A DNA stretch of 64,000 nt, from positions 2,656,001-2,720,000 of the forward strand of contig OY761556.1 in NCBI GenBank assembly GCA_963664705.1. The letters run 5' to 3'. The position numbers and the translations under genes were made by a program. The stretch's first letter is position 1. Each line of letters begins with the position of its first letter. The notes beneath the pieces were generated by a model. That model was not told the DNA's origin, ran no database searches, and was given only the letters and a program-made list of their open reading frames with translations. The stretch comes from Acidobacteriota bacterium. Its GTDB lineage: Bacteria; Acidobacteriota; UBA6911. Shown here piece by piece: positions 11,653 to 47,419 of this stretch.

Positions 11653-11691
11653 TGTCACACTATTATGACATAATGTCATAACAGTGTGACG
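11653..11691. promoter_or_regulatory. Tandem pair of TGTCAYA-N4-TRTGACA operators (sites 1 and 2)
   Basis: TGTCACActatTATGACA (11653-11670) and TGTCATAacagTGTGACG (11674-11691), in a divergent promoter region. An extended -10, TGTTATAAT, lies at 11694-11702. Confidence 0.8.
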
Positions 11692-11845
11692 CATGTTATA
11701 ATAGCCTTTTCCAAATGAAGATAGCGTGCTTCCGGGCTAAATCACGTCCATGCACTGCATAATTGAGCTTAGATCCGGAAATACCGAGACAGCGGCGTAG
11801 CGTGCCCACATGGCAAATCGACTCCTTAAACCAGGTGACTGACCG

Positions 11846-13159
11846 ATGATATCCCGGAAAGAAATCTCGCAATATAAAAAAGAAAATCTCATTTTTAAAA
11901 AGCAGATCGAAGAGCAAACGGGAAAAACCATCCAGCAGCATTATGAGGAAAGGTCCAAACGAGTCCGGGACGTCATTGAGTTGAGAACTCCGGATCGAAT
12001 GCCCTTCATGGTATTGGTTGAACCGCACAGCTATGCGGGAATTTCCAAATCCGCCGCATTTTATGATCCGATCACGCTCAAGCGCACCATGAGAAAAATG
12101 GCAATGGACTTTCAGCCGGACATGAGTGAACCTGGCTTTCCATCCTGCGGCGCTGCCATGACGGAACTCGATGTGCAGAACTGCGTCTGGCCGGGCGGCC
12201 CCAAGCCGCCGGACTATGACTATCAGTTCATCGAAGGGGAATACATGAAGGAAGATGAGTACGACATGTTCCTGAATGACCCTTCCGGCTTCATGATCCG
12301 ACGCTATCTTCCGCGCATATACGCCGCCCTAAACCCATTGGCCAAACTCCCTCCTCTGGACAGTATGTTCATGGGGTTTGAAGCCTTGACCCCGTTGTTA
12401 TCCAGCTCCGAATTTCGAGGAATGGTCAAGCACATAGCCAAGGCAGGAAAGCACGTTCAGGAGTTCCGCAAGCTCGTCGGCGATGCTAATGAGGAATTGG
12501 CACAGTTGGGGTTTCCGCCATTTGCCCGCTTCGCACCAGGGGGCGTAGGGGGAGCACCCTTCGATACGCTTACAAGTTTCCTGCGCGGCATGAAAGGCTC
12601 CATGCTGGATATGTACCGTCGGCCCGACAAGCTGCTCCAGGCCTGCGAGAAGATTCTGGATCGGCGCATCGCTTGTGCTATTCCCGCAGATGCAACCTTA
12701 ATGGACTTTCCCCCAAGGGTAGGGCTGCCGCTCTGGAGAGGGGATCCGGTGTTTATGTCTGATGCCCAATTTAGGAAGTTTTACTGGCCCGGGCTCAAGA
12801 AGTCCCTGCAAACGCACGTGGACCTGGGCTACGTGCCGGTACCATTTTTCGAAGCACCATTCGGGGATAGACTTGAATGCCTTCTGGAGTTGCCGAAAGG
12901 AAAGATACTTGCTTCCATCGAAGCCGCAGATGCGGTTCGCGCCAAGGAAATTCTCGGCGGCCACACCAGCCTGTTGGTTCGTTGTCCGAATACCTGCAAG
13001 CTGTGGTCATTTGGTCAACTGGAATCCTTCATCAAGGATCTGATAAACAAATGCGGCAAAAACGGCGGACTCATCCTGGTTCTAAAGAAACCGGATTCAG
13101 TGGGAATTGATGAGATGCGGGCGCTGCTGAAATCCATGAATGAATATAGTCGGAATTAA
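11846..13159 (+). CDS. Uroporphyrinogen decarboxylase / MtaA-CmuA methyltransferase superfamily protein
   Basis: Motifs PDRMP, EGEYMKEDEYD, APFDTLTSFLRGMKGSMLDMYRRPDKL, FMSDAQFRKFYWP, CGKNGGLIL. Confidence 0.85.
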   Translation: MISRKEISQYKKENLIFKKQIEEQTGKTIQQHYEERSKRVRDVIELRTPDRMPFMVLVEPHSYAGISKSAAFYDPITLKRTMRKMAMDFQPDMSEPGFPSCGAAMTELDVQNCVWPGGPKPPDYDYQFIEGEYMKEDEYDMFLNDPSGFMIRRYLPRIYAALNPLAKLPPLDSMFMGFEALTPLLSSSEFRGMVKHIAKAGKHVQEFRKLVGDANEELAQLGFPPFARFAPGGVGGAPFDTLTSFLRGMKGSMLDMYRRPDKLLQACEKILDRRIACAIPADATLMDFPPRVGLPLWRGDPVFMSDAQFRKFYWPGLKKSLQTHVDLGYVPVPFFEAPFGDRLECLLELPKGKILASIEAADAVRAKEILGGHTSLLVRCPNTCKLWSFGQLESFIKDLINKCGKNGGLILVLKKPDSVGIDEMRALLKSMNEYSRN

Positions 13160-13387
13160 GGCCAACAAGGAAACTGGAAACCAGGCTATCCGTATACAGA
13201 GACCGTTGCAGATCGCCAGAAGCCGATTGGTTGGATCTGGAAGAATATAGACAAATTATGTCCATAGTCATGGCGATAGTATGTAATAGCAGGATGGCGG
13301 ATAGCGTATATACCCACATGCACCCATGATAGGATTTTCTCTGGCTTGGCCCCAAATTGTAATCAAATGCTCAAAGTGGAGGCAAAG

Positions 13388-14962
13388 ATGAGAAGGACAT
13401 TTCTCGCAATCTTTTTGACAATAGCGTTTGCGCAATTCTCCGTCTCCCAGATTCGCACGGCAAAGGTAACCGGCGGAAAAGTGCAGGGAGTGGTTTCTGA
13501 CAGTATTTCAGCATTCAAGGGAATCCCATTTGCCGCACCGCCGGTTGGAGATCTGCGCTGGAAAGCCCCCGCACCGCTGCTACCTTGGACAGGGGTCAAA
13601 AAGGCCGATGCTTTCGGGCCTGCCTGTATGCAAGCCTCCGGCGCAATGGGAAACACCGCACCGGTCAGCGAAGATTGCCTGTATCTGAATGTATGGACAC
13701 CCGCAAAAAAGCCTGGCGCAAAGATCCCGGTGATTGTTTGGATTTATGGAGGAGGCTTCAGCGGCGGATCAACCAGTACTTCCATGTATGACGGCATGGG
13801 CTTCGCCAAAAAGGGAGTAGTTCTGGTGAGTGTCGCGTATCGAGTCGGACCCTTCGGATTCATGGCCCATCCGGAACTGAGCCGTGAGAGCGGCAAGGGA
13901 TCGGGAAGCTACGGACTCGAGGATATGATTGCCGGGCTAAGATGGGTAAAGATGAATATTGCCCGGTTTGGAGGTGATCCCGGCAACGTGACAATTTTCG
14001 GGCACTCAGCCGGCGGCATGGCAGTCAACATGCTTGCAGCATCGCCTGTCACCAAGGGCCTTTTCCACCGCGCCATCTGCATGAGCGGAGGATCGTTTGC
14101 CCCGCTACAGTCTTCAAATGAAGGGGGAATCGATCTGGGAATTCCTACCCTAAAGCTGGCTGAATCAACCGGCGAAGCCTTTCTGAAGAGATTGGGCACT
14201 GCCGATATTAGGGCCGCGCGCGCGATCCCTGCGGAACAAATCCAAAAGAATATCGGGGGCGGAATGGGTGTCGGCGGATTCCGACCGCCTGCCGACGGAT
14301 ATGTTATTCCAAACGACCTGTACTCTATTTATCAGGCACGCCTTTTCAATGACACACCGGTTCTGGTGGGCAACACCTCGGATGAATTGGGATCATTCGG
14401 CAGTCGTGGACCGACCATTACGGCAGCAAGTTTTGAAGAGCAGATCAGGTCGCGATATGGGCCTCACGCCGATGCAATTTTGGGCGTATATCCGCATTCT
14501 AACGATGCTGAGGCTGCAAAGTCACAAAAAGGGCTTTCGCGCGAAAGCACGTTTTCCTGGAGCACGTGGACATGGGCTCGCATGCAAACAAAGCAAGGCA
14601 AGGGCAAGGCCTTTATTTACTATTATGATTTCCATGCGCCTAATGTAGACGGCTCGGGCCACGGCAGCGATGTCCCGTATGCATTTCAGACCCTGGGCGG
14701 GGGACGAGGCGGGGCCCCCAAACCGGAAGATATGAAGCTTTCCGAAGTAATCAGCTCCTATTGGGTCAATTTCGCAAAGACAGGCGATCCCAATGGACCC
14801 GGCCTCCCCAAGTGGCCTGCTTTCGCGGAGAGCAATCAGCAGGCGATGGTGTTCGATGCAACATCCGGAGCCAGACCCGTTCCCAATTTGGACAAGCTGA
14901 AAGCATTTGACTCCTATATTACATGGCGAAGAGAAGAAGAGAAGAAAAACGCCGGAAAATAA
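13388..14962 (+). CDS. Exported type-B carboxylesterase; close paralogue of 10040-11614
   Basis: Motifs SEDCLYLNVW, GHSAGG, NTSDE, GSGHGSD; RBS GGAGG before ATG 13388. Confidence 0.95.
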   Translation: MRRTFLAIFLTIAFAQFSVSQIRTAKVTGGKVQGVVSDSISAFKGIPFAAPPVGDLRWKAPAPLLPWTGVKKADAFGPACMQASGAMGNTAPVSEDCLYLNVWTPAKKPGAKIPVIVWIYGGGFSGGSTSTSMYDGMGFAKKGVVLVSVAYRVGPFGFMAHPELSRESGKGSGSYGLEDMIAGLRWVKMNIARFGGDPGNVTIFGHSAGGMAVNMLAASPVTKGLFHRAICMSGGSFAPLQSSNEGGIDLGIPTLKLAESTGEAFLKRLGTADIRAARAIPAEQIQKNIGGGMGVGGFRPPADGYVIPNDLYSIYQARLFNDTPVLVGNTSDELGSFGSRGPTITAASFEEQIRSRYGPHADAILGVYPHSNDAEAAKSQKGLSRESTFSWSTWTWARMQTKQGKGKAFIYYYDFHAPNVDGSGHGSDVPYAFQTLGGGRGGAPKPEDMKLSEVISSYWVNFAKTGDPNGPGLPKWPAFAESNQQAMVFDATSGARPVPNLDKLKAFDSYITWRREEEKKNAGK

Positions 14963-15020
14963 TTATGCCTGCTACCGGAAGCGCGCCGTCTCAGCGGCAT
15001 CAGCGTTGTGGGAACGGTAA

Positions 15021-16448
<1,428 letters not shown>

Positions 16449-16455
16449 TTCAATA

Positions 16456-16569
16456 GTCAGTGGTTGGTGGTTGGTGGTTGGTGGTTAGTAGCCAGTAGCC
16501 AGCAGTCGAGAGCCAGGAATCTGCAGGTAGTAATACCATGGACTCCTGGCTTCTGATTTCTGGCTTCTG
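16456..16569. repeat. Heptamer tandem repeat tract with a closing inverted repeat
   Basis: Nine 7-mers: GTCAGTG, GTTGGTG x3, GTTAGTA, GCCAGTA, GCCAGCA, GTCGAGA, GCCAGGA. Complementary 7-mers follow (ACTCCTG, GCTTCTG, ATTTCTG, GCTTCTG). Stem AGCCAGGA/TCCTGGCT. Confidence 0.8.
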
Positions 16570-16588
16570 CATTATGGAGGATTCAATT

Positions 16589-18307
16589 ATGCGAAAATTT
16601 TGGACGGCGCTTTCCATTGGAATTCTCGCCGTCCTGGCAGCCCAGGATTTATCCCGGGCTCAAGGGACTGCGGATTCCAAACTCAAGGCGCCTGATGCTC
16701 AATTTGAGGTTCTCAGCCCCTGGGCGGATGTTGATCCCATCCCGCTCCGCGGGATTTCCCCGAGAATTCAGACGCTCGCGGGAAAGAAGGTCGGATTGTT
16801 CGTCAATCCGAAGCGGGCGGCCAAGCCGATTTCCGAATCAATCGATAAAAGACTGAAGGCCATGTATCCCGATATCCAGACAATCGTCTTCAATTCTACC
16901 GAGGCGAATGTCAATGAAATCGAGACAAAGAACAAGGACAAATTCACGGCATGGGCAAAAGGACTTGACGCTGCCATTGCCGTCGTCGGTGATTGAGGGT
17001 CCTGCACAAAGTACCTCGCCTATAACACAATAGCGATCGAGGACTTTGGCAAGCCAGTCGTGTTACTGGCCAATAAGGGTTTTGTTACCGATGCTCAATC
17101 AGCTGCATCCAGCAAAGGCATGCCCGGCATCAGGATTGTAGGGGAATCTGTTGCCTGTGAATCCACTGTCAAATCTGAGATAGAAGAAGGCATAGCGGCA
17201 GCCATGAAAGATGTCGTGGAAGCTTTGACCAAGCCGCTGACCGCTGAAGAAAAAACTCCGAAACCACAAACGGGTAAAACTCCAAGGGTAGCATTCAAAG
17301 GAAGCCTTCAAGATGTAAACCGGTTTTACTACAGCAAGGGGTGGACCGACGGCCTTCCGATCATTCCGCCTACCGCGGAAGCTGTCGCAGAAATGCTAAC
17401 CGGAACGGATCTACCACCTGATCATATCGTGGCAACGATCATTCCGAGAAAGGGAAAGGCCACGGTCGAAAAGATTGCGATTAATGCAGTCATGGCAGGT
17501 GCTCTTCCGACTTACATGCCCGTCTTGATTGCTGCGGTACAGTCATTCGCCGATCCAAAAACGAGATTTGATACGTTTGAGGTGAGTACCGGTTCGTGGG
17601 CACCCTTCATTGCCATCAATGGCCGAATCCGAAACGACATCAACATCAATTGCAGTTCAGGCGCATTGAGTCCGGGGAATATCGCAAACTCAGCGCTTGG
17701 CCGGGCCGTTGGTTTGATCGTAAAGAACATCGGCGGAGCAAGAAAGGCTGTCGAGGATATGGGGGTCATCGGCAATCCGGGCAAATACAGCCTCGTAATC
17801 GGTGAAGATGAGGAATCCAGCCCCTGGGAATCCCTCAGTGTCGAGCGCGGCTACAAGAAAGAGGACAATACTCTGACTGTGTTCTTCCCCAACACTTTCA
17901 TCCAGACCGTCCCAACCGGAACAAACGCGCAAGGGATTCTGGATACGCTGGCCGGGATGACCACCAGCACTATGTCCAGCATCATTCTTATTCCTTCATG
18001 GGCCAGGGTGTTATCGAGTGAAGGATGGACCAAACAGAAGGTCAAGGAATACCTGGCGGCTCACGGGACTTCTATCCGCTCGAGTGTCGCTGGTTTTGGC
18101 AGCGATACGACTCTTCCGAAAATCCAGACAGACAGCCTTATGCTGCTGGTTGCCGGCGGGCCGGGCTCGTTTATCGCGGTGCTGAGAAGTGCGGGACCCG
18201 GGTTTTTCGAAAATGCCCTGGTCACGAAGAAGATTGAGTTGCCGAAGAATTGGGACAAGCTGGTAGCAAAGTACAAAGACATCAAACCGCATTACGAGAA
18301 GTACTAG
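16589..18307 (+). CDS. UGSC-family selenoprotein (Sec at TGA 16994-16996) with signal peptide, fused to a GWTDGLPIIPPT domain; 572 aa
   Basis: ORFs 16538-16996 and 17060-18307 are in the same frame. Reading through the TGA gives AIAVVGD-U-GSCTKYLAYNTIAIEDFGKPVVLLANKGF with no other stop. RBS GGAGG before ATG 16589; no obvious RBS before 17060. Confidence 0.88.
17003..17051 (+). promoter_or_regulatory. Candidate SECIS hairpin downstream of the UGA
   Basis: Nested pairs TGC/GCA, CAAAGT/ACTTTG, CCTCG/CGAGG and CTAT/ATAG close the loop AACACA (17024-17029). Confidence 0.6.
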
Positions 18308-18366: not shown

Positions 18367-20061
18367 TTAGGCCAACAGGATCTTGCGCACTTCACCTTCC
18401 GGATCGTCGACCATCCTACAGTTATTATCAAACACCATTGTCTGACACCGTGTCGGATCGAACGGTTCCCACGTCATCCCGGGCTGGCTGGGATTTCCGG
18501 TCCGGGCAAAATTCGCCCAGGCGGTGGACATCTTTTTTGCCAATGCCTGCGCTTCCGGACCGTTTCCGGTTCCCTGCTTGCACCGTTTTGTGTTATCAAA
18601 GCAAAAAGCCAATTCCGCCGTATGCCACGCGCCCGCATCTTCCAGCATTGGCGATTGCCATGAGAAATACCATAAAAATACTGGGGCACCCTTCAGCTGG
18701 TGTTTCATGGTAGCCATGCGAATGGCGTTGTTGCATATATTGAAAGTGTTCAAACCGCCGCCATTGCACATATACGACAGCTTACGAACGCTTTTATCCG
18801 GATGTACCTTTTTCATCGCCGCGACCAGTGCCGTAGCTTTGGCCTCGCCATAGCTCTTCGTCAGTGTGGCCATCCACTCAGCCTCCGTGGGCCGGGAGAG
18901 CATTGAATTCCCCTCCTCGCTCACCGAACCGATAAGCATAGGAATGTTCTTTGAGATTTCGGGGGCCGCATCGAAAAAGGACTTCATAGTAATGACGCGG
19001 CCATCCGCCGTTGGTCCCCATCCCACGCGCGGCTTTCCCGTTCCAGGCGGAGGAATCGGCCCGTAAACGCCCATTGGCGGGTTCATTTTGGCAGCGACAG
19101 CTTCGCCCAGCGCATTCAATTTAGCCCAATCCATTTTTTGGAGCGTGGCCATGTCGCGAACGCCTAATTCCGCGAAAACCCGTTTTGCATACTCGCTGGA
19201 TTGCTCAGCACTGGGAGCATCCCCGCCCCCACCGGACTGTGCGGATGCGCGATGAATCAAGCCTGCGGCCGAAGGCATGCCCAGAAGTGTCGTCACCTTG
19301 GAACCTCCGCCCGACTGGCCATAAATCATAATACAATCCGGATCGCCGCCGAAATTGGCGATGTTGTCCCGAACCCAGCGAAGCGCTGCCACAAGATCGA
19401 TCATCCCAACGTTCGACGATTCGGCATATGCCGTCCCGCCGATCGAGGACACATCTAGAAATCCGAGGATATTGAGGCGGTGATTGACCGTGACGGATAC
19501 GACGTCATGATGTCGGGCCATCTGCGCCCCGTCCTGGGAGGCAAGTTCGTACGCCGAGCCGAAAGAAAAACCGCCCCCATGGATATAGAACATCACCGGG
19601 CGCTTTCCCGTCAAACCGGGCGTCCAAATATTGACCTTCAGCATGTCCTCACTTTGCCAGCCATCCGTCCACTGCTGCAGAAACGTTTGCTCGCTGGACC
19701 AGTTATGCGGGTGCTGTGGACAATTAGGGCCATAGGTCAAAGCAGGGTATTCGCCATCCCACGGCGTCGGCGGTTTGGCCGGAAGCCACCTGTTTTCGCC
19801 TCCGGTATTTGCGCCATAGGGGACTCCCTTGAATGTCAGAATGCCATCCTCCACGTAGCCTCGCACCTTCCCGCATTGCGTATTTGCCACAGCGCTTCGC
19901 GGTGTGCTGCAGCTTGCCGCCGCCTGCGGCACCGCCGTATTTGCTCCGTTGCCTGAACCGCACGCAGCTGCAGCAAGCGCCGCTGCGCCCGCGGAAGCCG
20001 ATAGGATCAGGGCCTGTCGCCGGTTGAGTTTATTGCTGTCATTCGCATTCGATCTAGGCAT
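18367..20061 (-). CDS. Type-B carboxylesterase with Tat signal and possible lipobox
   Basis: Leader NRRQAL...AAAACG; motifs FKGVPYGA, SEDMLKVNIW, GQSGGG, SEEG, AWHTAE. Confidence 0.93.
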   Translation of the reverse strand: MPRSNANDSNKLNRRQALILSASAGAAALAAAACGSGNGANTAVPQAAASCSTPRSAVANTQCGKVRGYVEDGILTFKGVPYGANTGGENRWLPAKPPTPWDGEYPALTYGPNCPQHPHNWSSEQTFLQQWTDGWQSEDMLKVNIWTPGLTGKRPVMFYIHGGGFSFGSAYELASQDGAQMARHHDVVSVTVNHRLNILGFLDVSSIGGTAYAESSNVGMIDLVAALRWVRDNIANFGGDPDCIMIYGQSGGGSKVTTLLGMPSAAGLIHRASAQSGGGGDAPSAEQSSEYAKRVFAELGVRDMATLQKMDWAKLNALGEAVAAKMNPPMGVYGPIPPPGTGKPRVGWGPTADGRVITMKSFFDAAPEISKNIPMLIGSVSEEGNSMLSRPTEAEWMATLTKSYGEAKATALVAAMKKVHPDKSVRKLSYMCNGGGLNTFNICNNAIRMATMKHQLKGAPVFLWYFSWQSPMLEDAGAWHTAELAFCFDNTKRCKQGTGNGPEAQALAKKMSTAWANFARTGNPSQPGMTWEPFDPTRCQTMVFDNNCRMVDDPEGEVRKILLA

Positions 20062-20188
20062 TTTGCCTCCCCTTGGAGCATCGCGGCACTAGCAGCAAAC
20101 AAGCCTTCCCCGCGGCTCAGTGCCTGTATTGATTGCTGGTTCGTTTTTTGGATATCAATGTCGTTGTTTGTAACCTGGCCAAGCCCGC

Positions 20189-20243
20189 ATTATACATTGG
20201 ACCGGAAAAATACGTCCCTTGTTTGTGTCACATATTTGGGACA
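20189..20243 (-). promoter_or_regulatory. Operator site 3 plus TATAAT -10 box
   Basis: TGTCACAtattTGGGACA at 20226-20243. Minus-strand TATAAT at 20194-20189, 31 nt from the operator edge. The -35 position reads GGGACG (weak). Confidence 0.7.
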
Positions 20244-20376
20244 TCTTGATGCGGTTCTATCAGATGGATGTCAATCACAGAGCATTATGGCCGCAAAGCC
20301 TCCAGGATGTTTTGAATCCCGGAGGCTTTGGGATCTTGAGGTACTTGACCGGAGCAACCTCAAAAGCGATAGATTA

Positions 20377-21027
20377 TCAGTCGATCTTTTCGTGCCCAAG
20401 CATCTGCATGTAGCCGGTCTGGTAATACCCATTGAAATATGGCGACAGGAGTAGCGGCATGAATAGCAGCGGCTTCCCTACTCGCTTGATGTCCATCGGA
20501 TTGTGCTCAAATCCTCTTGGTATATAAAGGATACAGGGCTTGGTGATAATGTGCCTTTCATATTCCGGTCCGAGGAATATTTCAATTTCCGCATCGAAGT
20601 TCGCCGTCAAATCCGGCAGTTGGGCACCGAGGAAGAAAAGGTATTCATCCACATCGTGGTGATGGGACTGCAGCTCCATCTTGTATGGCTTGACATAATA
20701 GCGAAACCCAAAATTAATACCGGCACCGGGAAGGTCGCTGTTACCCCGAAAACTGATTGTCGGACTCAGAATTGTGTCGGTCAGCGGTTTCTCTTTAATT
20801 CTGTGACAAAACAGGTGGTCGTATTTGCTGCCCTCAGTCCCTTTGGGCCAAGGGGGAAGGTTTTTGGGCATTCGCAAATTCTCCAAGGGCTCCTTCTTCT
20901 CCTGGGCCATTGCCCCGGCCGGAGCGCCGACCTGGGCCATTGCCAATGCTGCAAGGGCGGTGGTTGCTGTTACATCGCTGAAAAATGCTCTGCGCGTTTT
21001 ATCGTTATTGTTAGTCCCTGAACTCAT
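20377..21027 (-). CDS. Tat-exported cupin-like protein of unknown function
   Basis: Leader TRRAFF; cupin-type motifs SHHHDVDEYLFF and LYIPRGFEHNP; RBS AAGGAG before ATG 21027. Confidence 0.75.
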   Translation of the reverse strand: MSSGTNNNDKTRRAFFSDVTATTALAALAMAQVGAPAGAMAQEKKEPLENLRMPKNLPPWPKGTEGSKYDHLFCHRIKEKPLTDTILSPTISFRGNSDLPGAGINFGFRYYVKPYKMELQSHHHDVDEYLFFLGAQLPDLTANFDAEIEIFLGPEYERHIITKPCILYIPRGFEHNPMDIKRVGKPLLFMPLLLSPYFNGYYQTGYMQMLGHEKID

Positions 21028-21055
21028 TGAACTTCTCCTTAGCATGTCTTCGAGC

Positions 21056-21103
21056 CTTTGAGCCTTTGAGAAAGAGGAGGGTGCAAAACTCAAAGGCTCA
21101 AAG
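21056..21103. repeat. REP-like octamer-based inverted repeat, copy 1
   Basis: CTTTGAGCCTTTGAG-N18-CTCAAAGGCTCAAAG; perfect 15-bp arms. Confidence 0.75.
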
Positions 21104-21115
21104 TCTCCGTAACAA

Positions 21116-33692: not shown

Positions 33693-33701
33693 GTTACCGT
33701 C

Positions 33702-39682: not shown

Positions 39683-39923
39683 TAACAACCCCCCGGCCCT
39701 TCAGTCCTGGGATATCCGCTGTTCACTTGTTCCTCTGACCAGTGAGAGGCATGCTTTGAGCAGAAAAATGACCAAACCTAATCCCCATGGTATTGAATCT
39801 GTGATTCGAAGCAACTCTAAAGCCGGACACAAAGTCTTGCCTTCCGGCGGCAATGAAACGATCTTGACCAAGGTCGGATTTTTGCCTCCTTTAAGTCCAC
39901 AGCCTATGCGCAAACGAAAAGAC

Positions 39924-41372
39924 ATGGTTCAGGAGAAGGTATTCGGTTTCGAGATACCGCCAGAACCAATTCCTTCTCGTGACATTAAGAAAAATATCTA
40001 TGCTGAGGTAGTAGTGGTAGGCGGTGGGATAGCAGGGTTGAGTGCTGCCATTTCTGCAGCAGAGGCAGGAGCCAATACCGTCTTATTGGAGAAGACGGCA
40101 ACCATTCAAGCTCGCGGCCACGATAACGCTTTTATCGGTAGCCGGCTTCAGGAAAAGCTGGGAATAAAAATCGATAGAGACGAAGTCATACTAAATTTAG
40201 TGAAATATGGAGCCAATAAGCCTGACCAAAGACTAATCAGATTGTGGGCCGAAGGAAGCGGTAAAACTGCCGACTGGCTCATGGATATGACGGACGCCGC
40301 GGGTCTCGAGGTAATTATTAACCACTATCCCCCGCCTCCAGCTTTCACTCATGACAGGGAATACTATCCTCAATATTCAGTTACGCACCATTACCACAAT
40401 GAACGTCCAGTAGCCAGATGTTTACTGGATAATGCCCTCAAGAAAGGCGTTACTGCATATTTTAAAACCCGCGCAAAGCAGCTTCTGCGAAAGAAGAACG
40501 GCCGGGTCACCGGCGTTGTTGCCCAAAATGCGGATGGTGAATATCAGCAGTTCAATGCTTCCAAAGCCGTTATACTCTGCACCGGAGATTACAGCAACAA
40601 CGCTGAGATGATGGCTAAATACTGTCCGCAATCATCATACCTCGAATCCATGATACCCACTTCCAATGGAGACGGGCATATGATGGCGATGTGGGTTGGT
40701 GCAGTCATGGAACCCGGGCCGCATATACCGATGATCCACGGCCCCGCCGGTCCACTTCTCAGTTCGGCCTTCCTTCAAGTAAATCTCAAGGGAGAACGCT
40801 TTCAGAATGAAGATGTCCCAATTCAAAGTAATGTAAATGCCGTCGAGCGACAACCTGGCAGGATAGCCTGGCAGGTATTTGATTCGAAGTATCCGGAGGA
40901 ACTTCCATATCTTGGGATAGGCCTGGGGAAAATTATTATTGCAACTAAAACAATCCGGCAAAAAGTGGATAAAGCAGCAATAAAGGCCAACTCGATCGAA
41001 GAACTGGCAACGAAGATGAAAATACCGGTTGAAGCCTTTGTGGCCACCATCAGGAGATACAACGAACTGGCACGACTGGGAAGAGATCTGGACTTTGGCA
41101 AGCGGCCGGATCGCTTGTTTGCTATTGATAATCCCCCATATTGTGCGGGTAAAAGTGGTTACGAATTACTGGCTGTTTTGGGAGGCCTTAATATCAATTG
41201 GAAATTGCAGCCTCTGGATAAGGATTGGGAAATCATTCCAGGAATCTATCTTGCAGGAAATACAATGGGCAATCGCTTTGCCGTAGATTACCCAACGATG
41301 TGCCCCGGGCTTAGCCATGGAATGGCAATACACTTTGGCCGGGTTGCCGGGTTAAATGCTGCCTCGCAATAA
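39924..41372 (+). CDS. Flavoprotein of the fumarate reductase / flavocytochrome c (FAD_binding_2) superfamily
   Basis: Motifs VVVVGGGIAG, GRVTGVVA, AVILCTGDY, NGDGH, VNLKGERFQNE, IPGIYLAGN, GRVAG. Start at 39906 or 39924. Confidence 0.88.
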   Translation: MVQEKVFGFEIPPEPIPSRDIKKNIYAEVVVVGGGIAGLSAAISAAEAGANTVLLEKTATIQARGHDNAFIGSRLQEKLGIKIDRDEVILNLVKYGANKPDQRLIRLWAEGSGKTADWLMDMTDAAGLEVIINHYPPPPAFTHDREYYPQYSVTHHYHNERPVARCLLDNALKKGVTAYFKTRAKQLLRKKNGRVTGVVAQNADGEYQQFNASKAVILCTGDYSNNAEMMAKYCPQSSYLESMIPTSNGDGHMMAMWVGAVMEPGPHIPMIHGPAGPLLSSAFLQVNLKGERFQNEDVPIQSNVNAVERQPGRIAWQVFDSKYPEELPYLGIGLGKIIIATKTIRQKVDKAAIKANSIEELATKMKIPVEAFVATIRRYNELARLGRDLDFGKRPDRLFAIDNPPYCAGKSGYELLAVLGGLNINWKLQPLDKDWEIIPGIYLAGNTMGNRFAVDYPTMCPGLSHGMAIHFGRVAGLNAASQ

Positions 41373-41568: not shown

Positions 41569-43005
41569 TTAGAGAGATATGCCGATTCTGATTGGTTGTA
41601 TTTTTGTCAAATCAGAATACCCGGACTTGATCTGCAGACTCTCTGTAATAGAAAGGTATCGGTCGTCAGTCTCTTCCCAGGCCGGCCACTCGATAAGTCC
41701 CTTTACGCTTGGGTTTCCTGTTCTGGCAAATTGAGTCCATATGCGCATCATGGATTCTGAAACAGTTCTGTCAATATCCGAAATGGTTGGCACCGGGGAT
41801 TTGGCGCCGGAAAGCGCAAAACCCCCATAGTGAGCCTCCCAGGCTTCAGTAACGTCCAGGGATCCGAACATATAATGCAATTCCATCCCGTGGGCTGCAA
41901 CACAACCTTCGCTTCTCCAGTTATCCGGCACACGGTCAAAAACTGCAGCATATCCTCTCGAGTCGTCTTTGCTCGGAGCTTTTAGCATGGCTATATAGTC
42001 TGCAACCATCTTGTCCGCGATGACCAACCCCGGCCCCGTCAGTTCCCCCATGTCAGATACAACAAGATAAGGCACTTCATTGCGTTGACCGGTCCGGAAC
42101 ATATTGATGATTGAGTCCGGCAGGAACCATCCATCTTGAGCCACGCTCCAGGGCCCCATGAATTCATACTCTGCGCCCAAATCCTCATTCAAAGACTGTT
42201 CCACTTCGACAATTTTTTCCCAGGAAACAGCACGGGCTGCTGCAAGCGGATCCACTGCGCTGTCGACACCGAGTTTGGAGAAAAATCTCTCACCGAACGC
42301 TTCCAGCCTTTTCAGTTGCGTTGGTTCAAAGTCCTTCCCCCCGCTCTGGATGATGGCTCGATGAAACATTCCCTTTGCCAGAGGGGAGGCGACTAAGGCA
42401 GCTACCTTGAGCCCGCCTCCCGATTGACCAATGATCGTCACGCTATCCGGGTCGCCACCAAAAGCGGCGATATTTTTTCTGACCCATTGAAGGGAATCAA
42501 TCAAATCCAGAAAGAGATAATTACCGGATACTCCTTGGGGGGATTCACGAGATATTAGTTCGTGTGCGAACAAACCGAATATGCCGAGCCGGCTATTAAC
42601 AGTAACCAGCACAACATCGTGGCAGGGCAAACCGAGGCTGTTACTGATGGGAAGATTCCCATTTCCATATCGAGTACCGCCGCCATGAAACCAAACCATA
42701 ACCGGCAATTTTTCGCCCGCCTCTCTGGCGGGCGTCATCACATGGAGGTATAGACAATCTTCGCTCGAAGACAATGATTGCAATTTCCCCGAAGCATGAA
42801 CATCCGGATATTGGGCAGCCTGGTTGCTGTATTCTGTGCATCGGCGGATACCAGACCATGGGGCCGGCGGTTGCGCCGGCTTCCAGCGCAAAATTCCGAC
42901 AGGCGGAGCAGCATAGGGTATGCCCCTAAATATGGAGAGCTCCCGCTCCCCTTGTCTTACCTTCATGCCGGAAATGGAGCCGGTATTCAGCGTGACGCGA
43001 TCCAT
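41569..43005 (-). CDS. Type-B carboxylesterase without signal peptide
   Basis: Motifs FRGIPYAAPP, SEDCLYL, GQSGGG, AAHGME, WTQFARTGNP; RBS GAGGAGGAGG. Confidence 0.92.
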   Translation of the reverse strand: MDRVTLNTGSISGMKVRQGERELSIFRGIPYAAPPVGILRWKPAQPPAPWSGIRRCTEYSNQAAQYPDVHASGKLQSLSSSEDCLYLHVMTPAREAGEKLPVMVWFHGGGTRYGNGNLPISNSLGLPCHDVVLVTVNSRLGIFGLFAHELISRESPQGVSGNYLFLDLIDSLQWVRKNIAAFGGDPDSVTIIGQSGGGLKVAALVASPLAKGMFHRAIIQSGGKDFEPTQLKRLEAFGERFFSKLGVDSAVDPLAAARAVSWEKIVEVEQSLNEDLGAEYEFMGPWSVAQDGWFLPDSIINMFRTGQRNEVPYLVVSDMGELTGPGLVIADKMVADYIAMLKAPSKDDSRGYAAVFDRVPDNWRSEGCVAAHGMELHYMFGSLDVTEAWEAHYGGFALSGAKSPVPTISDIDRTVSESMMRIWTQFARTGNPSVKGLIEWPAWEETDDRYLSITESLQIKSGYSDLTKIQPIRIGISL

Positions 43006-43209
43006 CGCCTCCTCCTCTTTTTCCTATGCGCGCTGGTCTCCAACGAAATTCCTGATTCACACGCATAATGGGGTAGAGCCATTTCTTTGTTGCTATCGGG
43101 GTTTTGACGAGCGTACCAGGCCTTATTCCCGTGGCGTACTCCGATGCTCCTATGTGTCCTCCTGCGGAGTTTGCCCTACCCCCAGGAGTCTTTTTCGATT
43201 TCCAGACTG

Positions 43210-44055
43210 TCACTGTTTCGAAGCCGGAATTTTGGGACACCCGTTTGGACAAAGCGTAATGACGTGTACAAAGCGCAGCTTCCCATTTTCCAGTCGGAAA
43301 GTGTGTGCGTCGGGCAATCCTTTCTCGCCACCGAAGTCGATCTGTCCCATGACAGCTCCCAGGTCGACGTCCACTATGTAGCGTCGATTATTCATTGGCA
43401 CGCCCCCACCTTTGGGAACTCCTTCGGTGCAGGCTGGGTTTGGGTGGTTATCGGCGTTGGTGTAGTACCCGCCCTCAATACGGCTGCAAGGAATGCCCCA
43501 GGGCAATTTATTGAAGGCTGAATAATCCTGGAAAATGTCGAAATAATCGTCCGCGACCTTGATCAGTGCCTTACGATCCATGCGCTTATCGGACGGAATA
43601 ATTTCCCACTTCTCTGTGGACGAGTATTTCAGATAACTCTTTGCATCGAACAGCCAGTCTCGCTTATCGCTTGCAAGGCTTTCAATCTCGGCAATCCTGC
43701 CATCGGAGATTTTCAACCGGGTTCCGATGACCCATGGGTGATCGCTATTCGACTGAATGATCTCAGTGTAAGATTCGCAGATATCCACATCGTAAATGCT
43801 GCGACTGAAATCGATTGGGAAAGGCTTTTTCCAGAGGCCCTGTCCCAACGGAATTACCTTTCTTCTTTCGATATATTTTGCCTGAGTGACGAGAGGCATC
43901 AGAGATGGATCCCCTTTTTTCAAGGCACTTAGATATTTGTTGGTCACTTCCTGAAGTCCTGTTCGCGTGCATCCTTTGCCTGCTGAAGTCAGGACGGGCT
44001 CCGCCGAGGCAGGAATAGCAAAACAAAGCAGCAAAAACGAAATGATTATCCGCAT
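43210..44055 (-). CDS. Exported hypothetical protein (possibly NTF2-like fold)
   Basis: Signal peptide, RBS AAGGAG, co-oriented in the operon. The fold is a guess from the pattern GTRLKISDGRIAEIE / HTFRLENGKL. Confidence 0.7.
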   Translation of the reverse strand: MRIIISFLLLCFAIPASAEPVLTSAGKGCTRTGLQEVTNKYLSALKKGDPSLMPLVTQAKYIERRKVIPLGQGLWKKPFPIDFSRSIYDVDICESYTEIIQSNSDHPWVIGTRLKISDGRIAEIESLASDKRDWLFDAKSYLKYSSTEKWEIIPSDKRMDRKALIKVADDYFDIFQDYSAFNKLPWGIPCSRIEGGYYTNADNHPNPACTEGVPKGGGVPMNNRRYIVDVDLGAVMGQIDFGGEKGLPDAHTFRLENGKLRFVHVITLCPNGCPKIPASKQ

Positions 44056-44091
44056 CCTATCTCCTTTTTGTTGAGTTCGAATAGTTTTATC

Positions 44092-45198
44092 CTAACGTCT
44101 CGCCGGATGGCGTACTTCGGAAAGCGAGGAATCATTGGCCTGTAGCCGCAGGATTCGGTTGCCCTGGAAGCTGCCGACAAAAATAGAGCCTTTTAGCTGA
44201 AGAGCAACAGAGGCGCCCGCGATCAACGCACGCTTCCCATGAGAATCAAAAACGGTTTTAGCCTGCATTTTCACCGGATCAATTATTGCAACACCAAAAC
44301 CTTGGATACATGGCTCGCCACTGCCGCCAGGGCAATCACCCTGCACTCCCTTGATTCCAGCTGCGAGTATTTGCCCCTTGGCAGTCCAGGAGAGGTTATC
44401 CGGCATGAATTCCAACCTAATTACGGAAATATCGCGGCCTGCGGCGAGATCATATTTGTGCACTTCCCTAGCGGTCCACGCCGCATAGTATATGTAGCGG
44501 CCTTGTGAATCAGCGATAACTCCATTCGGATAACCGAATTTCGTTCCTGACAGTTCCGTTTCGCCTTTTCCCGCGGTCCACCGAGCCACAACACCGCTGG
44601 GTTTTCCGCTGATAAGATCCGGGCCTTTGATACCCATCGCGTTTGGATGGGTTGCGACGAAACCGCCGTCGGGGAGCGTGGCGACGTCATTATAATCATT
44701 ATTTGCAATAACACAGCCGTGCCACACAAGTCCCCAGACACCTGCCGTCCGTTTCACTTCGAACATTTCTATCGATTCGCGGCCGCCGTGATTGACAACA
44801 TACAGCTGTATAACGCCACTTGGCCTTTTCGACAATGAGATACCGTGAGGGGCAAATCTGTCACCCGCATCTCCGGGACACGCGGGATCGCCCCAATCCT
44901 TACGGGGTTCCACCGTAACCTTCATTTCGGTAAAACTATTTTGTTTTGGATCGTATAGTGCGATTCCGCCACGCGAGCTGTCCCTGCCTGCCATCTGACT
45001 CACGATCAGCCGTCGACCATCGGGTGCGGGTTCCATATCCTCCGGAGAGTGAGTGCCACATATAACTTCCGCAACACCAGCCGCCCCGCACTCTATTAGC
45101 GCTGGCTGCGGCTCCGGGCTGCGTTGCTGAGCATGCATGGCAGTTGCATATACAGCCATAACCAAGGCCATCCTGTGGAATATTGATCTGGCTTTCAT
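44092..45198 (-). CDS. Exported six-bladed beta-propeller (paraoxonase / SMP-30 lactonase-like)
   Basis: Motifs SPEDM, FAPHGIS, LYVVNHG, YNDV, YPNGV, MPDNL. Confidence 0.82.
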   Translation of the reverse strand: MKARSIFHRMALVMAVYATAMHAQQRSPEPQPALIECGAAGVAEVICGTHSPEDMEPAPDGRRLIVSQMAGRDSSRGGIALYDPKQNSFTEMKVTVEPRKDWGDPACPGDAGDRFAPHGISLSKRPSGVIQLYVVNHGGRESIEMFEVKRTAGVWGLVWHGCVIANNDYNDVATLPDGGFVATHPNAMGIKGPDLISGKPSGVVARWTAGKGETELSGTKFGYPNGVIADSQGRYIYYAAWTAREVHKYDLAAGRDISVIRLEFMPDNLSWTAKGQILAAGIKGVQGDCPGGSGEPCIQGFGVAIIDPVKMQAKTVFDSHGKRALIAGASVALQLKGSIFVGSFQGNRILRLQANDSSLSEVRHPARR

Positions 45199-45282
45199 TC
45201 CGTTCTCCTATTTACCAAGGTATCCATCGAGCCGCAGTGGGCTTGATCAGATACAGGCCCGCATTTCCAATGCCTCAATCAC

Positions 45283-47259
45283 TTATCTGTGAGTCACCGG
45301 GTTTTTGTAATGGAATGGGGCGACAAAGGTCGCAGGGTACGAATCATACGCATCCGTCGGCGGCCGATCCGGTAGGAACGTCTTCTCCGGATGGGTATTC
45401 GGCAACGCACTCTTACCCCACCCCTCCGCATAAGGTGTGCAGAACCTGGAGTAGGCGTGCAACGCTTTGATCTTCCAGATCGCACCCTCCTTAACATATT
45501 CATTTTCATAGGTGCCGCCGCCCCAGCTTGCAGATTTCAGATGTTCACCAATTTCGTTGAGAAATCGCCAGCGGCCTTTAGCGGTCATCCCGCCGGGAGC
45601 GACGTCAACGATGGGCTGCAGCTGAATATGGTTATAAAGCGTACCTCGTGCCAGACCATCCGGAGAAATCCGGACAAGGTACTCAAGCACTCTTGACTTG
45701 CCGGCAAATACACCCTTCCCACCCATTTCGAGAGTTCCGTCATCAGCGAAAAGGTCGGCGGCTTCTTTCCAGAGCTGCTTGTCGATATAAAAACCATAGA
45801 TCCGTTGCAGATTTTCGATCGCCCTCTCGTCTTCGAGCTGTAGTATACGGTTGCTTACGCGAATGTACGCGGCTCGCAATTCCTCCGGGATCGGCAATGC
45901 CGCTATTTCAGATTTCTCCGGCTTGCTTTGAACCGCGGTTGGATTCTTATAGTGAAACGGAGGAATATAGATCCCCGGGAAACTTTCATAGGTTTCGCTG
46001 GGTGGCTTGTCTGGAGGGATTTTGTCGCTGCGCTTAGGTGCCTCACGCGGGGCCATAGCCCAACCCTTATCGTATGGAGCAAAGAAAGTAGTGTAGAGGT
46101 GATCCTTTTTAAACTTCCAGTTGCCCCCTTCCATGACAAGCTCGTTCTCGTATACGCTGTCGCCCCAAATCCCGGTGCTTCCGAAAGTACCTAGCTGGCT
46201 AAGAGCTCGGCTGCGCACATTCGCGTGTTGTCCATCCGGAGCCAGATGAATGACCGGTTGCATTTGGATGTGATTGTGTAAGTGGCCCGGCTCAATATTC
46301 TGCGGTCCGAACAATTCCCACGCACGTCTCACGCCCTTTTTGCCAACATAAATGCCGCGCTGAGAAATTTCCATGGTCGAATCTTCAACAAACAGATCCG
46401 TGAGTTGGGCCCATTGCTGTTTGTCGAGATAGTACCCATACATAGAAACAAGGTTTTCAATTTCCTCAATGTCTTGAAGACTTCTGATGCGGCGGGCCAT
46501 TGCCTCGAGAGCCGCATCAGTTTCAATCGCTTTTCCTGAAGAAGCATGCGCTGAGGTTTGGTAGTGGTAAGGTGGCGTATACACACCAGGCCACACTTCA
46601 TACTGTTCGCTTGGAGGTCGATCCGGAGGAAGCTGCGTTGAAACATGGATTCCGTTCGTGCTATCCCTGTTTGCGGCCCATCCACCTTGATAGGGCACCA
46701 TGAAAGTCTGATACCAATGCAGTTTGCTGATCTTCCAGATTCCGTTATGTTTGATGTACTCATTCTCGTAAACGCCTTCACCCCAAAAAGCGCTTTTATT
46801 CAGCTGTCCCGACATGATGACCGCGCGCCAGCGCGCCTTCGCCGTGTGGCCTTCGTCCGAGACATGCACTACCGGCTGGAGTATAAAATGTTCGTTGAGC
46901 TGGCCATGTCTCAAACCATCGCGACCACCGCCATAAGCCAGCAAGTATTGGCGAATTCGTTTCTGGCCGACATAGATCCCATCAAGGCCGATTTCGATTG
47001 TGCCTTGTGGCGCAAAAAGATCCGCAGCCTGATTCCACATTCCGCAATCGAGGTAATATCCATAGGCACGCTGCAAGCGCTTCAGATCGCTTACATCTCG
47101 AATGCGATCAACCTCCTTTTCGAGCTGCTCGAGTTGTCTCCGGAAAACGACATCCTTTTCCCGGTCTTCTGCTTTATTGCGCGATTGCCCGTTGTCGGCA
47201 CCTGTATGTATCCACACGGCTGCAAGCATTGTGACCCCGATGCAAAGTAGAGGTTTCAT
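45283..47259 (-). CDS. Exported protein with three tandem SnoaL_4 (NTF2-like) domains
   Basis: Three copies of YG(Y/F)Y.D..W...DLF...H...QP(V/I)...YENE...WK...GW...PD(R/K)PP...P(Y/F)HY. Confidence 0.88.
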   Translation of the reverse strand: MKPLLCIGVTMLAAVWIHTGADNGQSRNKAEDREKDVVFRRQLEQLEKEVDRIRDVSDLKRLQRAYGYYLDCGMWNQAADLFAPQGTIEIGLDGIYVGQKRIRQYLLAYGGGRDGLRHGQLNEHFILQPVVHVSDEGHTAKARWRAVIMSGQLNKSAFWGEGVYENEYIKHNGIWKISKLHWYQTFMVPYQGGWAANRDSTNGIHVSTQLPPDRPPSEQYEVWPGVYTPPYHYQTSAHASSGKAIETDAALEAMARRIRSLQDIEEIENLVSMYGYYLDKQQWAQLTDLFVEDSTMEISQRGIYVGKKGVRRAWELFGPQNIEPGHLHNHIQMQPVIHLAPDGQHANVRSRALSQLGTFGSTGIWGDSVYENELVMEGGNWKFKKDHLYTTFFAPYDKGWAMAPREAPKRSDKIPPDKPPSETYESFPGIYIPPFHYKNPTAVQSKPEKSEIAALPIPEELRAAYIRVSNRILQLEDERAIENLQRIYGFYIDKQLWKEAADLFADDGTLEMGGKGVFAGKSRVLEYLVRISPDGLARGTLYNHIQLQPIVDVAPGGMTAKGRWRFLNEIGEHLKSASWGGGTYENEYVKEGAIWKIKALHAYSRFCTPYAEGWGKSALPNTHPEKTFLPDRPPTDAYDSYPATFVAPFHYKNPVTHR

Positions 47260-47365
47260 GGCCAACCCTCACCAGGCGTGAAAGTTCCTGCATTTATGGT
47301 TCCTTTGTACTGCATGTGGCCGGAAATCGAAGAGTTGTCTAAAAGCGATACCTTAGCACAATTGT

Positions 47366-47419
47366 TGTCACATAGCTGTGACAATATTCTTGACAAGGCG
47401 CGGACAGCTCAGATAGTAA
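47366..47419 (+). promoter_or_regulatory. Operator site 8 (perfect palindrome) plus sigma70-type promoter of the ABC operon
   Basis: TGTCACAtagcTGTGACA at 47366-47383, then TTGACA (47390-47395)-N18-TAGTAA (47414-47419). Confidence 0.85.

What the first reader, a model, noticed from the sequence alone, without database searches (positions are those of the whole stretch)
11653..47383. Candidate undescribed regulon: palindrome TGTCAYA-N4-TRTGACA at 8 intergenic sites
Seen: sites at 11653, 11674, 20226, 25027, 29231, 30369, 35382 and 47366, each within one mismatch of the consensus and all upstream of gene starts. I noticed no full copy inside a CDS. They front the carboxylesterase/URO-D pair, the Tat esterase, the TonB receptor/GntR pair, the Tat flavoprotein-polyferredoxin operon, two divergent esterases, the UxaA-IlvD and esterase-GRE operons, and the SnoaL and ABC operons. 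Known: the arm order is inverted relative to CRP (TGTGA-N6-TCACA) and differs from Rex (TTGTGAA-N4-TTCACAA). Inference: one regulator ties these functions into a single catabolic system. The best candidate is the YtrA/PlmA-like GntR at 25267, which sits beside the longest perfect site.
Basis: partly seen in the sequence, partly recalled or inferred. Interest (0 to 1): 0.85.

Follow-up and report, generated by a model that had tools for sequence, protein, structure and literature searches.

The report
New GntR-type regulon in uncultured Acidobacteria
An 18-base DNA palindrome marks about twenty promoters of ester-, sugar- and redox-enzyme genes in an uncultured acidobacterium and its relatives, and is likely the binding site of a neighbouring, unstudied type of GntR regulator that is predicted to switch these genes on while holding its own gene down.

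Summary
All 8 sites are real (chance 0.37). The genome has 23 sites with at most one mismatch. All are intergenic and 18 lie in a 146-kb block. The motif is found in 21 of 28 same-genus genomes and in none of 33 other relatives searched.

The 315-aa GntR at 25267 is the likely binder. It agrees with the motif in 26 of 28 genomes (three neighbouring regulators: 19, 17, 9). The site precedes 22 of 41 homologues sharing its recognition helix. Distant homologues with another helix carry a same-length variant, TGTTT-N8-AAACA (12 of 24; shuffle 0.3).

New here is fixed promoter geometry: the site ends 6 bp before a TTGACA -35 box, or 10 bp before an extended -10, at target genes, but covers the -35/spacer before the regulator's own gene in relatives. 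This suggests activation of targets plus autorepression.

The protein is not YtrA proper: it has a YtrA-like helix-turn-helix plus a predicted two-lobed sensor domain. Binding, sign of control and ligand are untested. No paper or earlier scan note describing it was found.

The parts
11653..11670 (.). Operator, perfect match; first of a tandem pair 21 bp apart, between the carboxylesterase (-) and the CdmB-like gene (+)
11674..11691 (.). Operator, 1 mismatch; an extended -10 (TG-n-TATAAT, hexamer 11697-11702, +) begins 5 bp after it (class B5, repressor-like position)
20226..20243 (.). Operator, 1 mismatch, upstream of the Tat-type carboxylesterase 18367-20061 (-); fits none of the three exact classes, TATAAT begins 31 bp from it on the - strand
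24991..25020 (-). Predicted sigma70 promoter of the TonB-dependent receptor operon: -35 TTGACT (25015-25020), 18-bp spacer, -10 TAATAT (24991-24996); operator ends 6 bp upstream (class A)
   Evidence: sequence
25027..25044 (.). Operator, perfect, 10-bp paired arms; between the TonB-dependent receptor (-) and the GntR gene (+), 240 bp before the GntR ATG
25267..26214 (+). Likely cognate regulator, 315 aa: GntR winged HTH (15-76), two long helices (84-125), two-lobed alpha/beta C-terminal domain (129-315)
29231..29248 (.). Operator, perfect; TTGACA lies 7 bp away on the - strand (29218-29223), facing the Tat FAD-oxidoreductase / polyferredoxin operon
30369..30386 (.). Operator, perfect, between two divergent hydrolase genes; extended -10 hexamer begins 10 bp after it on + (class B10)
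35382..35399 (.). Operator, perfect, between the UxaA-IlvD operon (-) and the esterase / glycyl-radical enzyme / flavoprotein operon (+); class B10 on +
47366..47383 (.). Operator, perfect; class A on + (TTGACA 47390-47395, sugar ABC operon) and class B10 on - (SnoaL operon)
10040..18307 (.). Predicted targets of 11653/11674: carboxylesterase (-); CdmB-like gene followed by two esterases and a split UGSC gene pair (+)
   Evidence: operon extent inferred
18367..24616 (-). Predicted targets of 25027 and 20226: TonB-dependent receptor, a 238-aa gene without family hit, Tat-type carboxylesterase
   Evidence: operon extent inferred
26204..31808 (.). Predicted targets of 29231 and 30369: polyferredoxin, FAD oxidoreductase, a hydrolase-like gene without Pfam hit, Esterase+CBM48 protein
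32028..41372 (.). Predicted targets of 35382: IlvD-family and UxaA-family dehydratases (-); carboxylesterase, unassigned glycyl-radical enzyme, flavocytochrome-c-like protein (+)
41569..54891 (.). Predicted targets of 47366: SnoaL, SGL-like, unknown and esterase genes (-); sugar ABC transporter and S15 hydrolase (+)
   Evidence: operon extent inferred
1869..2657 (-). FCD-type GntR, used as negative control; not part of the system

Best explanation
The palindrome TGTCAYA-N4-TRTGACA is likely the operator of the 315-aa GntR encoded at 25267, which is predicted to bind it as a dimer, activate about twenty catabolic promoters and repress its own gene. SHOWN: the sites, their intergenic position, their restriction to one genus among the genomes searched, their co-occurrence with this gene, the change of motif with the recognition helix among homologues, and three fixed distances to promoter-like boxes. 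INFERRED: (1) direct binding (about 0.88). (2) Activation where the site ends 6 bp before TTGACA (spanning about -60 to -43, 18-bp spacer to a weak -10) and where it ends 10 bp before an extended -10 and replaces the -35 (about -40 to -23); these two centres are 20 bp apart, on one helix face (about 0.6). (3) Repression where it ends 5 bp before an extended -10 (about -35 to -18), the position seen before the regulator gene in relatives (about 0.65). (4) A small ligand bound between the two C-terminal lobes switches activity, most plausibly a product of plant ester breakdown such as a phenolic or sugar acid (about 0.35). One site between divergent genes often serves both, class A on one strand and B10 on the other.
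For: Co-occurrence in 28 same-genus genomes: 19 have motif and orthologue (51% identity or more), 7 have neither, 2 have the motif only, 0 the orthologue only (Fisher p 3e-5; kin are not independent). Controls agree in 19 (FCD GntR), 17 (TetR) and 9 (LacI) of 28. 17 genomes of other genera of the family have neither motif nor gene. Footprint: 11 of 16 orthologue loci have a site within 1.5 kb upstream although flanking genes differ; 22 of 41 de-duplicated upstream regions of 'xRG'-helix homologues have an exact TGTCAY-N6-RTGACA (shuffle 0.0). A separate paralogue clade at 45-51% identity with the same helix has it in 6 of 7 rows. Distant homologues (27-38%) have TGTTT-N8-AAACA in 8 of 24 exact and 12 of 24 within one mismatch (shuffle 0.3; spacers N6, N7, N9, N10 give 0-1). 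The genome's own paralogue operon has TGTTTCT-N4-AGAAACA 6 bp before TTGACA. The motif fits the GntR rule NyGTNxACNy with GT and AC far from the centre (PMC4494728 passages). Geometry: in 132 distinct sites from relatives TTGAC starts at offset 6 in 62 cases, 7 in 5, 5 in 1; an extended -10 starts at offset 10 in 40 and 5 in 15; in this genome offset 6 occurs at 13 of 23 sites. The spacer is 18 bp in 49 of 54 class A promoters with a TAnnnT (of 75), whereas intergenic TTGAC[AT] genome-wide favours 17 (83 vs 59). Class B5 faces a family GntR gene in 13 of 15 cases, and none of 37 GntR-facing site directions is class A or B10. Precedent: the 323-aa PlmA-type GntR PMM1637 raises expression from a 21-22-bp palindrome starting at -55 to -57 (PMC6191309, results).
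Against: There are no binding, transcript or start-site data; -35 and -10 boxes are pattern matches. In this genome the 25027 site is class A toward the receptor and shows no B5 geometry toward the GntR gene; the B5 site (11674) faces the CdmB-like gene. 44 of 132 sites in relatives fit none of the three classes. 5 of 16 orthologue loci lack an upstream site. Paralogue groups NRA (0 of 11), NRS (1 of 12 for each pattern) and HHS (1 of 7) mostly show no site within 600 bp, and one NRS paralogue (L042) carries TGTCAY-type sites, against a strict helix code. G009 and G023 have one site but no orthologue found. The 51% cut-off and the TGTTT pattern were chosen after seeing the data (a 59% cut-off gives 25 of 28). 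Class A promoters are partly related by descent: 27 clusters at 60% identity, the largest 19 and 17 of 75. Loci were fetched around GntR genes, which over-samples GntR-facing sites. A consensus -35 box is unusual for a promoter that needs an activator (own knowledge), and characterised YtrA proteins are repressors (PMC6746942). C-terminal fold matches are middling (Z 8-10) and name no ligand.
Confidence: 0.6

Rival explanations
1. The same GntR binds the sites but is only a repressor: it blocks the alpha-CTD/UP region at class A promoters and the -35 region at class B promoters, and an inducer releases it.
For: All co-occurrence and footprint evidence applies equally. Class A promoters have a consensus TTGACA; class B10 sites overlap the -35 region, a usual repressor position (own knowledge). 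YtrA-type relatives repress (PMC6746942 passages). Fixed spacing could partly reflect copied promoters.
Against: Exact 6-bp spacing holds across 27 unrelated promoter clusters and 26 different downstream best-hit genes, and also in paralogue operons with different arms (those 4 cases were selected on that feature). Class A has a suboptimal 18-bp spacer. The regulator's own promoter uses a different geometry. PlmA-type precedent for activation.
Confidence: 0.27
2. An unlinked regulator of another family (CRP/FNR-, Fis/NtrC- or similar) binds the motif, and the GntR gene is just one of its targets.
For: TGTCA...TGACA arms resemble the CooA-type site (PMC545781 table). I could not scan whole proteomes of relatives, so only four regulators were tested for co-occurrence. 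Two genomes have a site without an orthologue found.
Against: The motif changes with the GntR recognition helix while keeping 18 bp, which an unrelated binder would not explain. CooA-, CRP-, Rex- and GlnR-like spacings are not enriched in the block (1, 0, 0 and 2 hits against 15; patterns recalled except CooA). None of the other site-fronted genes that I annotated is a regulator (several had no family hit).
Confidence: 0.09
3. The repeats are passive copies of a mobile promoter cassette, or chromosome-organising sites like matS, and carry no transcription-factor signal.
For: 18 of 23 sites cluster in 146 kb. Some promoters are clearly paralogous (30 of 38 and 28 of 38 identical flank bases in two pairs).
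Against: Arms are conserved at 98-100% while the centre and flanks vary. Most promoter pairs share only background identity. All sites are intergenic and promoter-phased. The block lies 0.6-0.76 Mb from the GC-skew terminus, and the matS pattern occurs once in the genome.
Confidence: 0.04

Closest known systems
YtrA subfamily of GntR (e.g. Sulfolobus YtrA, PDB 6sbs)
   Same: Winged HTH is closest to YtrA (Z 14.4, rmsd 0.9 A, 76 aligned; profile E 2e-22), followed by two long helices; palindrome with GT and AC far apart.
   Different: An extra domain of about 190 aa. An 18-bp site against a typical 24 bp (PMC6746942). About 20 promoters, many divergent and some tandem, against single ABC-transporter operons with single sites (PMC4494728). 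Predicted activator.
PlmA subfamily (PMM1637 of Prochlorococcus, PlmA of Anabaena and Synechococcus)
   Same: Similar length (323 vs 315 aa), YtrA-related N-terminus, palindrome just upstream of the -35 region, positive control shown in an E. coli reporter (PMC6191309).
   Different: Reported as cyanobacteria-only (PMC5083789). Its site is 21-22 bp with GTTG/GTTA flanks, and it does not bind its own promoter. No PlmA sequence was available to me, so C-terminal homology is untested.
GntR + Pfam PF27163 'YmtS_Ross' proteins
   Same: A full-length homologue (P0244, E 6.9e-10, residues 1-308) carries PF00392+PF27163. The close and distant alignments match over 308 columns (hhalign 100%; the distant set came from the query's own hits). 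Atlas neighbours at 0.95-0.96 have this architecture. Members occur in Deinococcus, Rhizobium, Sulfitobacter, Calothrix and Peptoclostridium plasmid records.
   Different: The query and its close orthologues are not annotated with PF27163, and the model was not available. I found no paper giving a function or motif for YmtS. That the name comes from an ORF beside glutamate mutase mutS is my guess.
AraR (GntR HTH fused to a LacI-type sensor)
   Same: The predicted C-terminal domain aligns over its whole length to LacI/periplasmic-binding-protein type I folds (3e61: Z 8.5, rmsd 4.4 A, 184 aligned) and to the PrpR sensor (2pju: Z 7.8, 169 aligned).
   Different: No Peripla_BP/LacI Pfam hit. The domain is about 190 aa against about 240-290 for those matches, and YtrA-like helices intervene.
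CRP, Rex, CooA and GlnR/TnrA motifs
   Same: Dyad sites of 16-18 bp with TGT...ACA ends.
   Different: Different arm order or spacing, and not enriched in this block (CooA site from PMC545781, the others recalled).

Membership tests
GntR family | N-terminal winged HTH (PF00392) | tested here: met
   32.1 bits against cut-off 27, residues 15-76; fold matches
GntR family | Operator fits NyGTNxACNy | tested here: met
   T-GT-N12-AC-A against the rule in PMC4494728; assumes the assignment of site to protein
YtrA subfamily | Reduced C-terminal domain of two helices, about 50 aa | tested here: not met
   Two helices (84-125) are followed by a 190-aa alpha/beta domain
YtrA subfamily | Gene in an operon with an ABC transporter; regulon of one operon | tested here: not met
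   Stand-alone gene, varied neighbours, 21-23 sites
YtrA subfamily | Conserved GT and AC far from the dyad centre | tested here: met
   12 bp between GT and AC; shorter than the typical 24-bp site
PlmA subfamily | At least 200 aa overlap and 38% identity to PlmA | not testable with these tools
   No PlmA sequence obtained; the paper's alignment is a picture; no PlmA model appeared among the NCBIfam hits
PlmA subfamily | Restricted to cyanobacteria | tested here: not met
   Close orthologues are in Acidobacteriota records
GntR + YmtS_Ross (PF27163) | C-terminal PF27163 hit | tested here: inconclusive
   Present on distant full-length homologues, not on the query's close group; model unavailable
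AraR subfamily | C-terminal domain homologous to GalR/LacI | tested here: inconclusive
   No Pfam hit; whole-domain fold match at Z about 8 only
FadR, HutC and MocR subfamilies | FCD, UTRA or aminotransferase C-terminal domain | tested here: not met
   Only the HTH region matches these models
CRP/FNR, Rex, GlnR regulons | Their arm order and spacing | tested here: not met
   Only spacer N4 of this motif is enriched; look-alike patterns give 0-2 hits in the block
MatP/matS-type macrodomain sites | 13-bp matS sites spread over the terminus region regardless of genes | tested here: not met
   matS pattern (recalled) occurs once; block is off the terminus; all sites are promoter-phased

The most novel reading that the evidence does not exclude
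This is the first operator and regulon for an uncharacterised, cross-phylum GntR subfamily (YtrA-type HTH plus a compact two-lobed sensor). Its members read an 18-bp TGT-N12-ACA dyad whose inner bases follow a recognition-helix code (NRG to TGTCAY, HHS/SRN to TGTTT). In this acidobacterial genus one member has become a master activator of plant-ester catabolism, using one site to drive two divergent promoters by two different geometries (about -51 and -31) while repressing itself from a third.
Probability: 0.4. Interest if true: 0.68.

Novelty: new variant of a known kind. Interest (0 to 1): 0.5.

Why it matters
I found no described regulon for Acidobacteria of this kind. This one groups about 20 operons, many with genes of unknown function (an unassigned glycyl-radical enzyme, CdmB-like and URO-D-family proteins, UGSC selenoproteins, flavocytochrome-like reductases, many esterases), into one testable programme in an uncultured lineage from peat, sediment and digester-type samples. 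It gives a widespread but unstudied GntR architecture its first candidate DNA site, a natural paralogue series for testing a recognition code, and a sharp prediction of dual activation and repression that can be tested in E. coli. It is a new regulator type within a known family, not a new kind of mechanism.

Tried and rejected
Single-protein scan of metagenome contigs found no relative; the alignment scan did. No RNA holder was listed for window 20000-29500, so start sites could not be checked; this says nothing on expression. Homodimer prediction was not obtained. No solved structure matches the C-terminal domain by sequence beyond a faint designed Rossmann protein (E 0.0016); fold searches gave only middling matches. 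A search for longer fused forms of the C-terminal domain returned 11 proteins, all GntR (weak test). A C-terminal-only profile barely detects the named distant members (best E 0.008), though full-length profiles do (E 1e-24 to 1e-54). TGT...ACA dyads upstream of five named distant members: one 18-bp TGTCA-N8-TGACA in Rhizobium, which can equally be two divergent -35 boxes, one 21-bp dyad in Calothrix far from the gene, none in three (the Deinococcus operon head lay outside the locus), so the 18-bp rule is not extended beyond the acidobacteria-rich set. The idea that TTGACA at +6 is a third half-site was considered and disfavoured: it is followed by a -10-like box at 18 bp, and is kept in paralogue operons whose arms are AAACA. 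A sigma54-like reading of the conserved TGTGCCAGC upstream of the GntR gene was rejected because the -12 element is not kept. The careful tree did not finish; the quick tree is used only for grouping (80 of 120 rows kept after removing short, stop-containing, over-90%-identical and under-300-bp-upstream rows). Literature searches without a description of this motif, regulator or regulon; RegPrecise could not be searched. Earlier-finding look-ups by place, sequence and words gave nothing on it.


Full report
OBSERVATION. The pattern TGTCAYA-N4-TRTGACA matches the window exactly 8 times at up to 2 mismatches, at the stated coordinates; shuffles give 0.37. The window is C1:2656001-2720000 of a 6.89-Mb single-contig genome. 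The genome has 16 perfect, 7 one-mismatch and 20 two-mismatch sites; 0.08 perfect sites are expected, and only the N4 spacer is enriched. With my own dicodon gene calls (5378 genes, 14.7% intergenic) all 23 sites with at most 1 mismatch are intergenic, while 13 of 20 two-mismatch hits are in genes. 18 of the 23 lie between 2,617,658 and 2,763,413; five lie elsewhere. A matrix built only from relatives' sites finds 21 sites at 20 bits or more, all intergenic.

HOST. Named records with 59-75% identical orthologues are titled Acidobacteriota MAGs. The accession of one named record with a 43% paralogue (L195) is given as a family UBA6911 (group 18) genome in bioRxiv 10.1101/2021.04.09.439258 (passages), so the host is likely of that family (inference).

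DISTRIBUTION. Perfect sites occur in 21 of 28 same-genus genomes (1-12 each), in 0 of 17 genomes of other genera of the family, and in 0 of 16 of other families in the class.

WHICH PROTEIN. The genome has six PF00392 matches; two are full-length members of the family discussed here, 25267 and a 40% paralogue at C1:4766079. (a) Co-occurrence: orthologue (51% or more, counting one frameshifted and one contig-cut copy) and motif agree in 26 of 28 genomes (19 both, 7 neither, 2 motif only). The FCD GntR agrees in 19, the nearby TetR in 17, the nearby LacI in 9. Genomes are incomplete and related, so this is support, not a formal test. (b) Footprint: 11 of 16 orthologue loci have a site upstream, often as a tandem pair 21 bp apart, while the neighbours vary. 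The divergent promoter of the FCD GntR operon has none in the window or in the four relatives' loci that include it. (c) Co-variation: among 120 distinct homologue loci, those with at least 300 bp upstream were de-duplicated and grouped by the start of the recognition helix. The xRG group has exact TGTCAY-N6-RTGACA in 22 of 41 (25 within one mismatch; shuffle 0.0 and 0.2). The distant S/G-RN group has none of these but has TGTTT-N8-AAACA in 8 of 24 exact and 12 of 24 within one mismatch (shuffle 0.0 and 0.3), with 0-1 for four other spacers. Intermediate groups mostly show nothing within 600 bp (NRA 0 of 11; NRS 1 of 12 for each pattern; HHS 1 of 7); some HHS and NRN genes lie at the end of receptor operons whose head carries a TGTT- or TGTCT-type dyad. 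On a quick tree the TGTCAY label falls on the orthologue clade, on a separate 45-51% paralogue clade (6 of 7 rows) and on one NRS row; TGTTT falls on 9 of 19 rows of the distant clade. The TGTTT pattern was chosen after viewing; the 18-bp length was fixed beforehand by the original motif.

THE PROTEIN. The AlphaFold model (89 sequences, pLDDT 89.4) shows a winged HTH closest to YtrA, two long helices, and a two-lobed alpha/beta domain (alone: pLDDT 91.8). That domain aligns end to end with LacI-type and periplasmic binding proteins (Z 8.0-8.5, about 180 residues) and the PrpR sensor, and lobe-wise with PTS IIB and receiver domains (Z up to 9.8). These scores suggest a ligand cleft but no ligand. 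Full-length relatives of about 320 aa number at least 115 clusters or fragments at E 1e-10 or better; the distant ones carry Pfam PF27163 YmtS_Ross and occur in several phyla.

In 132 distinct sites from relatives and 23 from this genome, three distances recur. Class A: TTGAC starts exactly 6 bp after the site (62 and 13 cases; 5 and 1 at 7 bp), with a TAnnnT 18 bp further in 49 of 54 cases where one is seen; the site then spans about -60 to -43. Class B10: TGnTAnnnT with the hexamer 10 bp after the site (40 and 6); the site spans about -40 to -23. Class B5: hexamer 5 bp after the site (15 and 2); the site spans about -35 to -18. 25 sites in relatives are A on one strand and B10 on the other; 44 fit no class. 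Class A faces 26 different best-hit genes, B10 mostly esterases, and B5 a family GntR gene in 13 of 15 cases. That a gene lies forward of a class (58 of 60 for A) is weak evidence, as unclassified directions do too (119 of 144). The 75 class A promoters form 27 clusters at 60% identity, so the spacing is not one copied cassette, though two large clusters share descent. I read A and B10 as activation positions and B5 as repression. The PlmA-type PMM1637 is a precedent for activation from just upstream of the -35 region (PMC6191309: passages, first part of the results section and the text of the supplementary figures; its alignments are pictures and were not visible). In this genome itself the GntR gene shows no B5 site, so autorepression rests on relatives.

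TARGETS. Site-fronted operons encode many carboxylesterases, three tannase/feruloyl-esterase-family genes (at C1:1135179, 2636069, 2738101), Esterase+CBM48 and GDSL proteins, GH3 glycosidases, two TonB-dependent receptors, MFS and ABC transporters, FAD_binding_2 flavoproteins, UxaA- and IlvD-family dehydratases, an unassigned glycyl-radical enzyme, CdmB-like and URO-D-family proteins, UGSC proteins and a glycerol-uptake operon. Operon extents are inferred from gene order. Breakdown of plant-derived esters with anaerobic use of the products is the simplest theme, but no substrate is shown, and none of the NCBIfam equivalogs for the radical enzyme or the flavoprotein was reached.

COMPARISON AND NOVELTY. 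It is a GntR-family regulon. It fails YtrA membership (large C-terminal domain, large regulon), could not be tested against PlmA by sequence, and is nearest to the uncharacterised GntR+YmtS_Ross architecture. Papers seen as passages: PMC4494728, PMC5083789, PMC545781, PMC6746942. Nine searches found no description of this motif, protein group or regulon; the library omits most subscription papers, and RegPrecise was not available. Verdict: a real, apparently undescribed regulon with a well-supported candidate regulator of an unstudied GntR type and a testable dual-mode prediction; new variant of a known kind; interest 0.5.

Noticed in passing
window 16538-18307 (+), TGA at 16994-16996: The two ORFs read through as ...VGD-TGA-GSC..., a UGSC-family selenoprotein split at a selenocysteine codon. 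Similar pairs occur at C1:2633620 and C1:4763554, and unsplit UGSC genes at C1:2728377 and 2730410.
   Followed up: partly
L073 (G000:C1:4766079-4772050): The paralogous GntR lies behind a TonB-dependent receptor whose promoter has TGTTTCT-N4-AGAAACA 6 bp before TTGACA, the only perfect copy in the genome. Imperfect repeats of roughly 130-200 bp fill the gap between the two genes.
   Followed up: partly
L074 (G000:C1:2909034-2909500): A short, true YtrA-type gene with its own long palindrome just upstream, ahead of two co-oriented genes that may be an ABC transporter (neighbours not annotated).
   Followed up: no
window 25115-25145 and orthologue loci L054, L055, L083, L100: A second conserved element upstream of the GntR gene, TTGACT then TGTGCCAGCA, followed in some relatives by another operator; possibly a second promoter under repression.
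   Followed up: partly
G000:C1:1130028 with window 47366; C1:2617658 with C1:2727555: Pairs of near-identical promoters (30 of 38 and 28 of 38 flank bases) in front of unrelated genes, suggesting promoter cassettes were copied between loci.
   Followed up: partly
window 37193-39682 and G000:C1:2614069-2616324: Two glycyl-radical enzymes that could not be assigned; the window one is below every NCBIfam cut-off (best HpsG-like 462 of 1000 bits).
   Followed up: no
window 1869-9970: A conserved divergent cluster (PGA_cap-like gene, CoA-transferase III, FCD GntR; two 2-hydroxyacyl-CoA dehydratase subunits, MFS, esterase) found intact in several relatives, without the motif.
   Followed up: partly
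L310 (NZ_CP007453.1), L307, L309, L312, L313: Distant family members sit between citrate lyase and glutamate mutase genes in Peptoclostridium, and in peptide-ABC / creatininase-family operons in Deinococcus and Sulfitobacter: cultured hosts for studying the family.
   Followed up: partly
G000 GC skew: Origin near 5.29 Mb with two parS-like sites at 5.41 Mb, terminus near 2.0 Mb.
   Followed up: no
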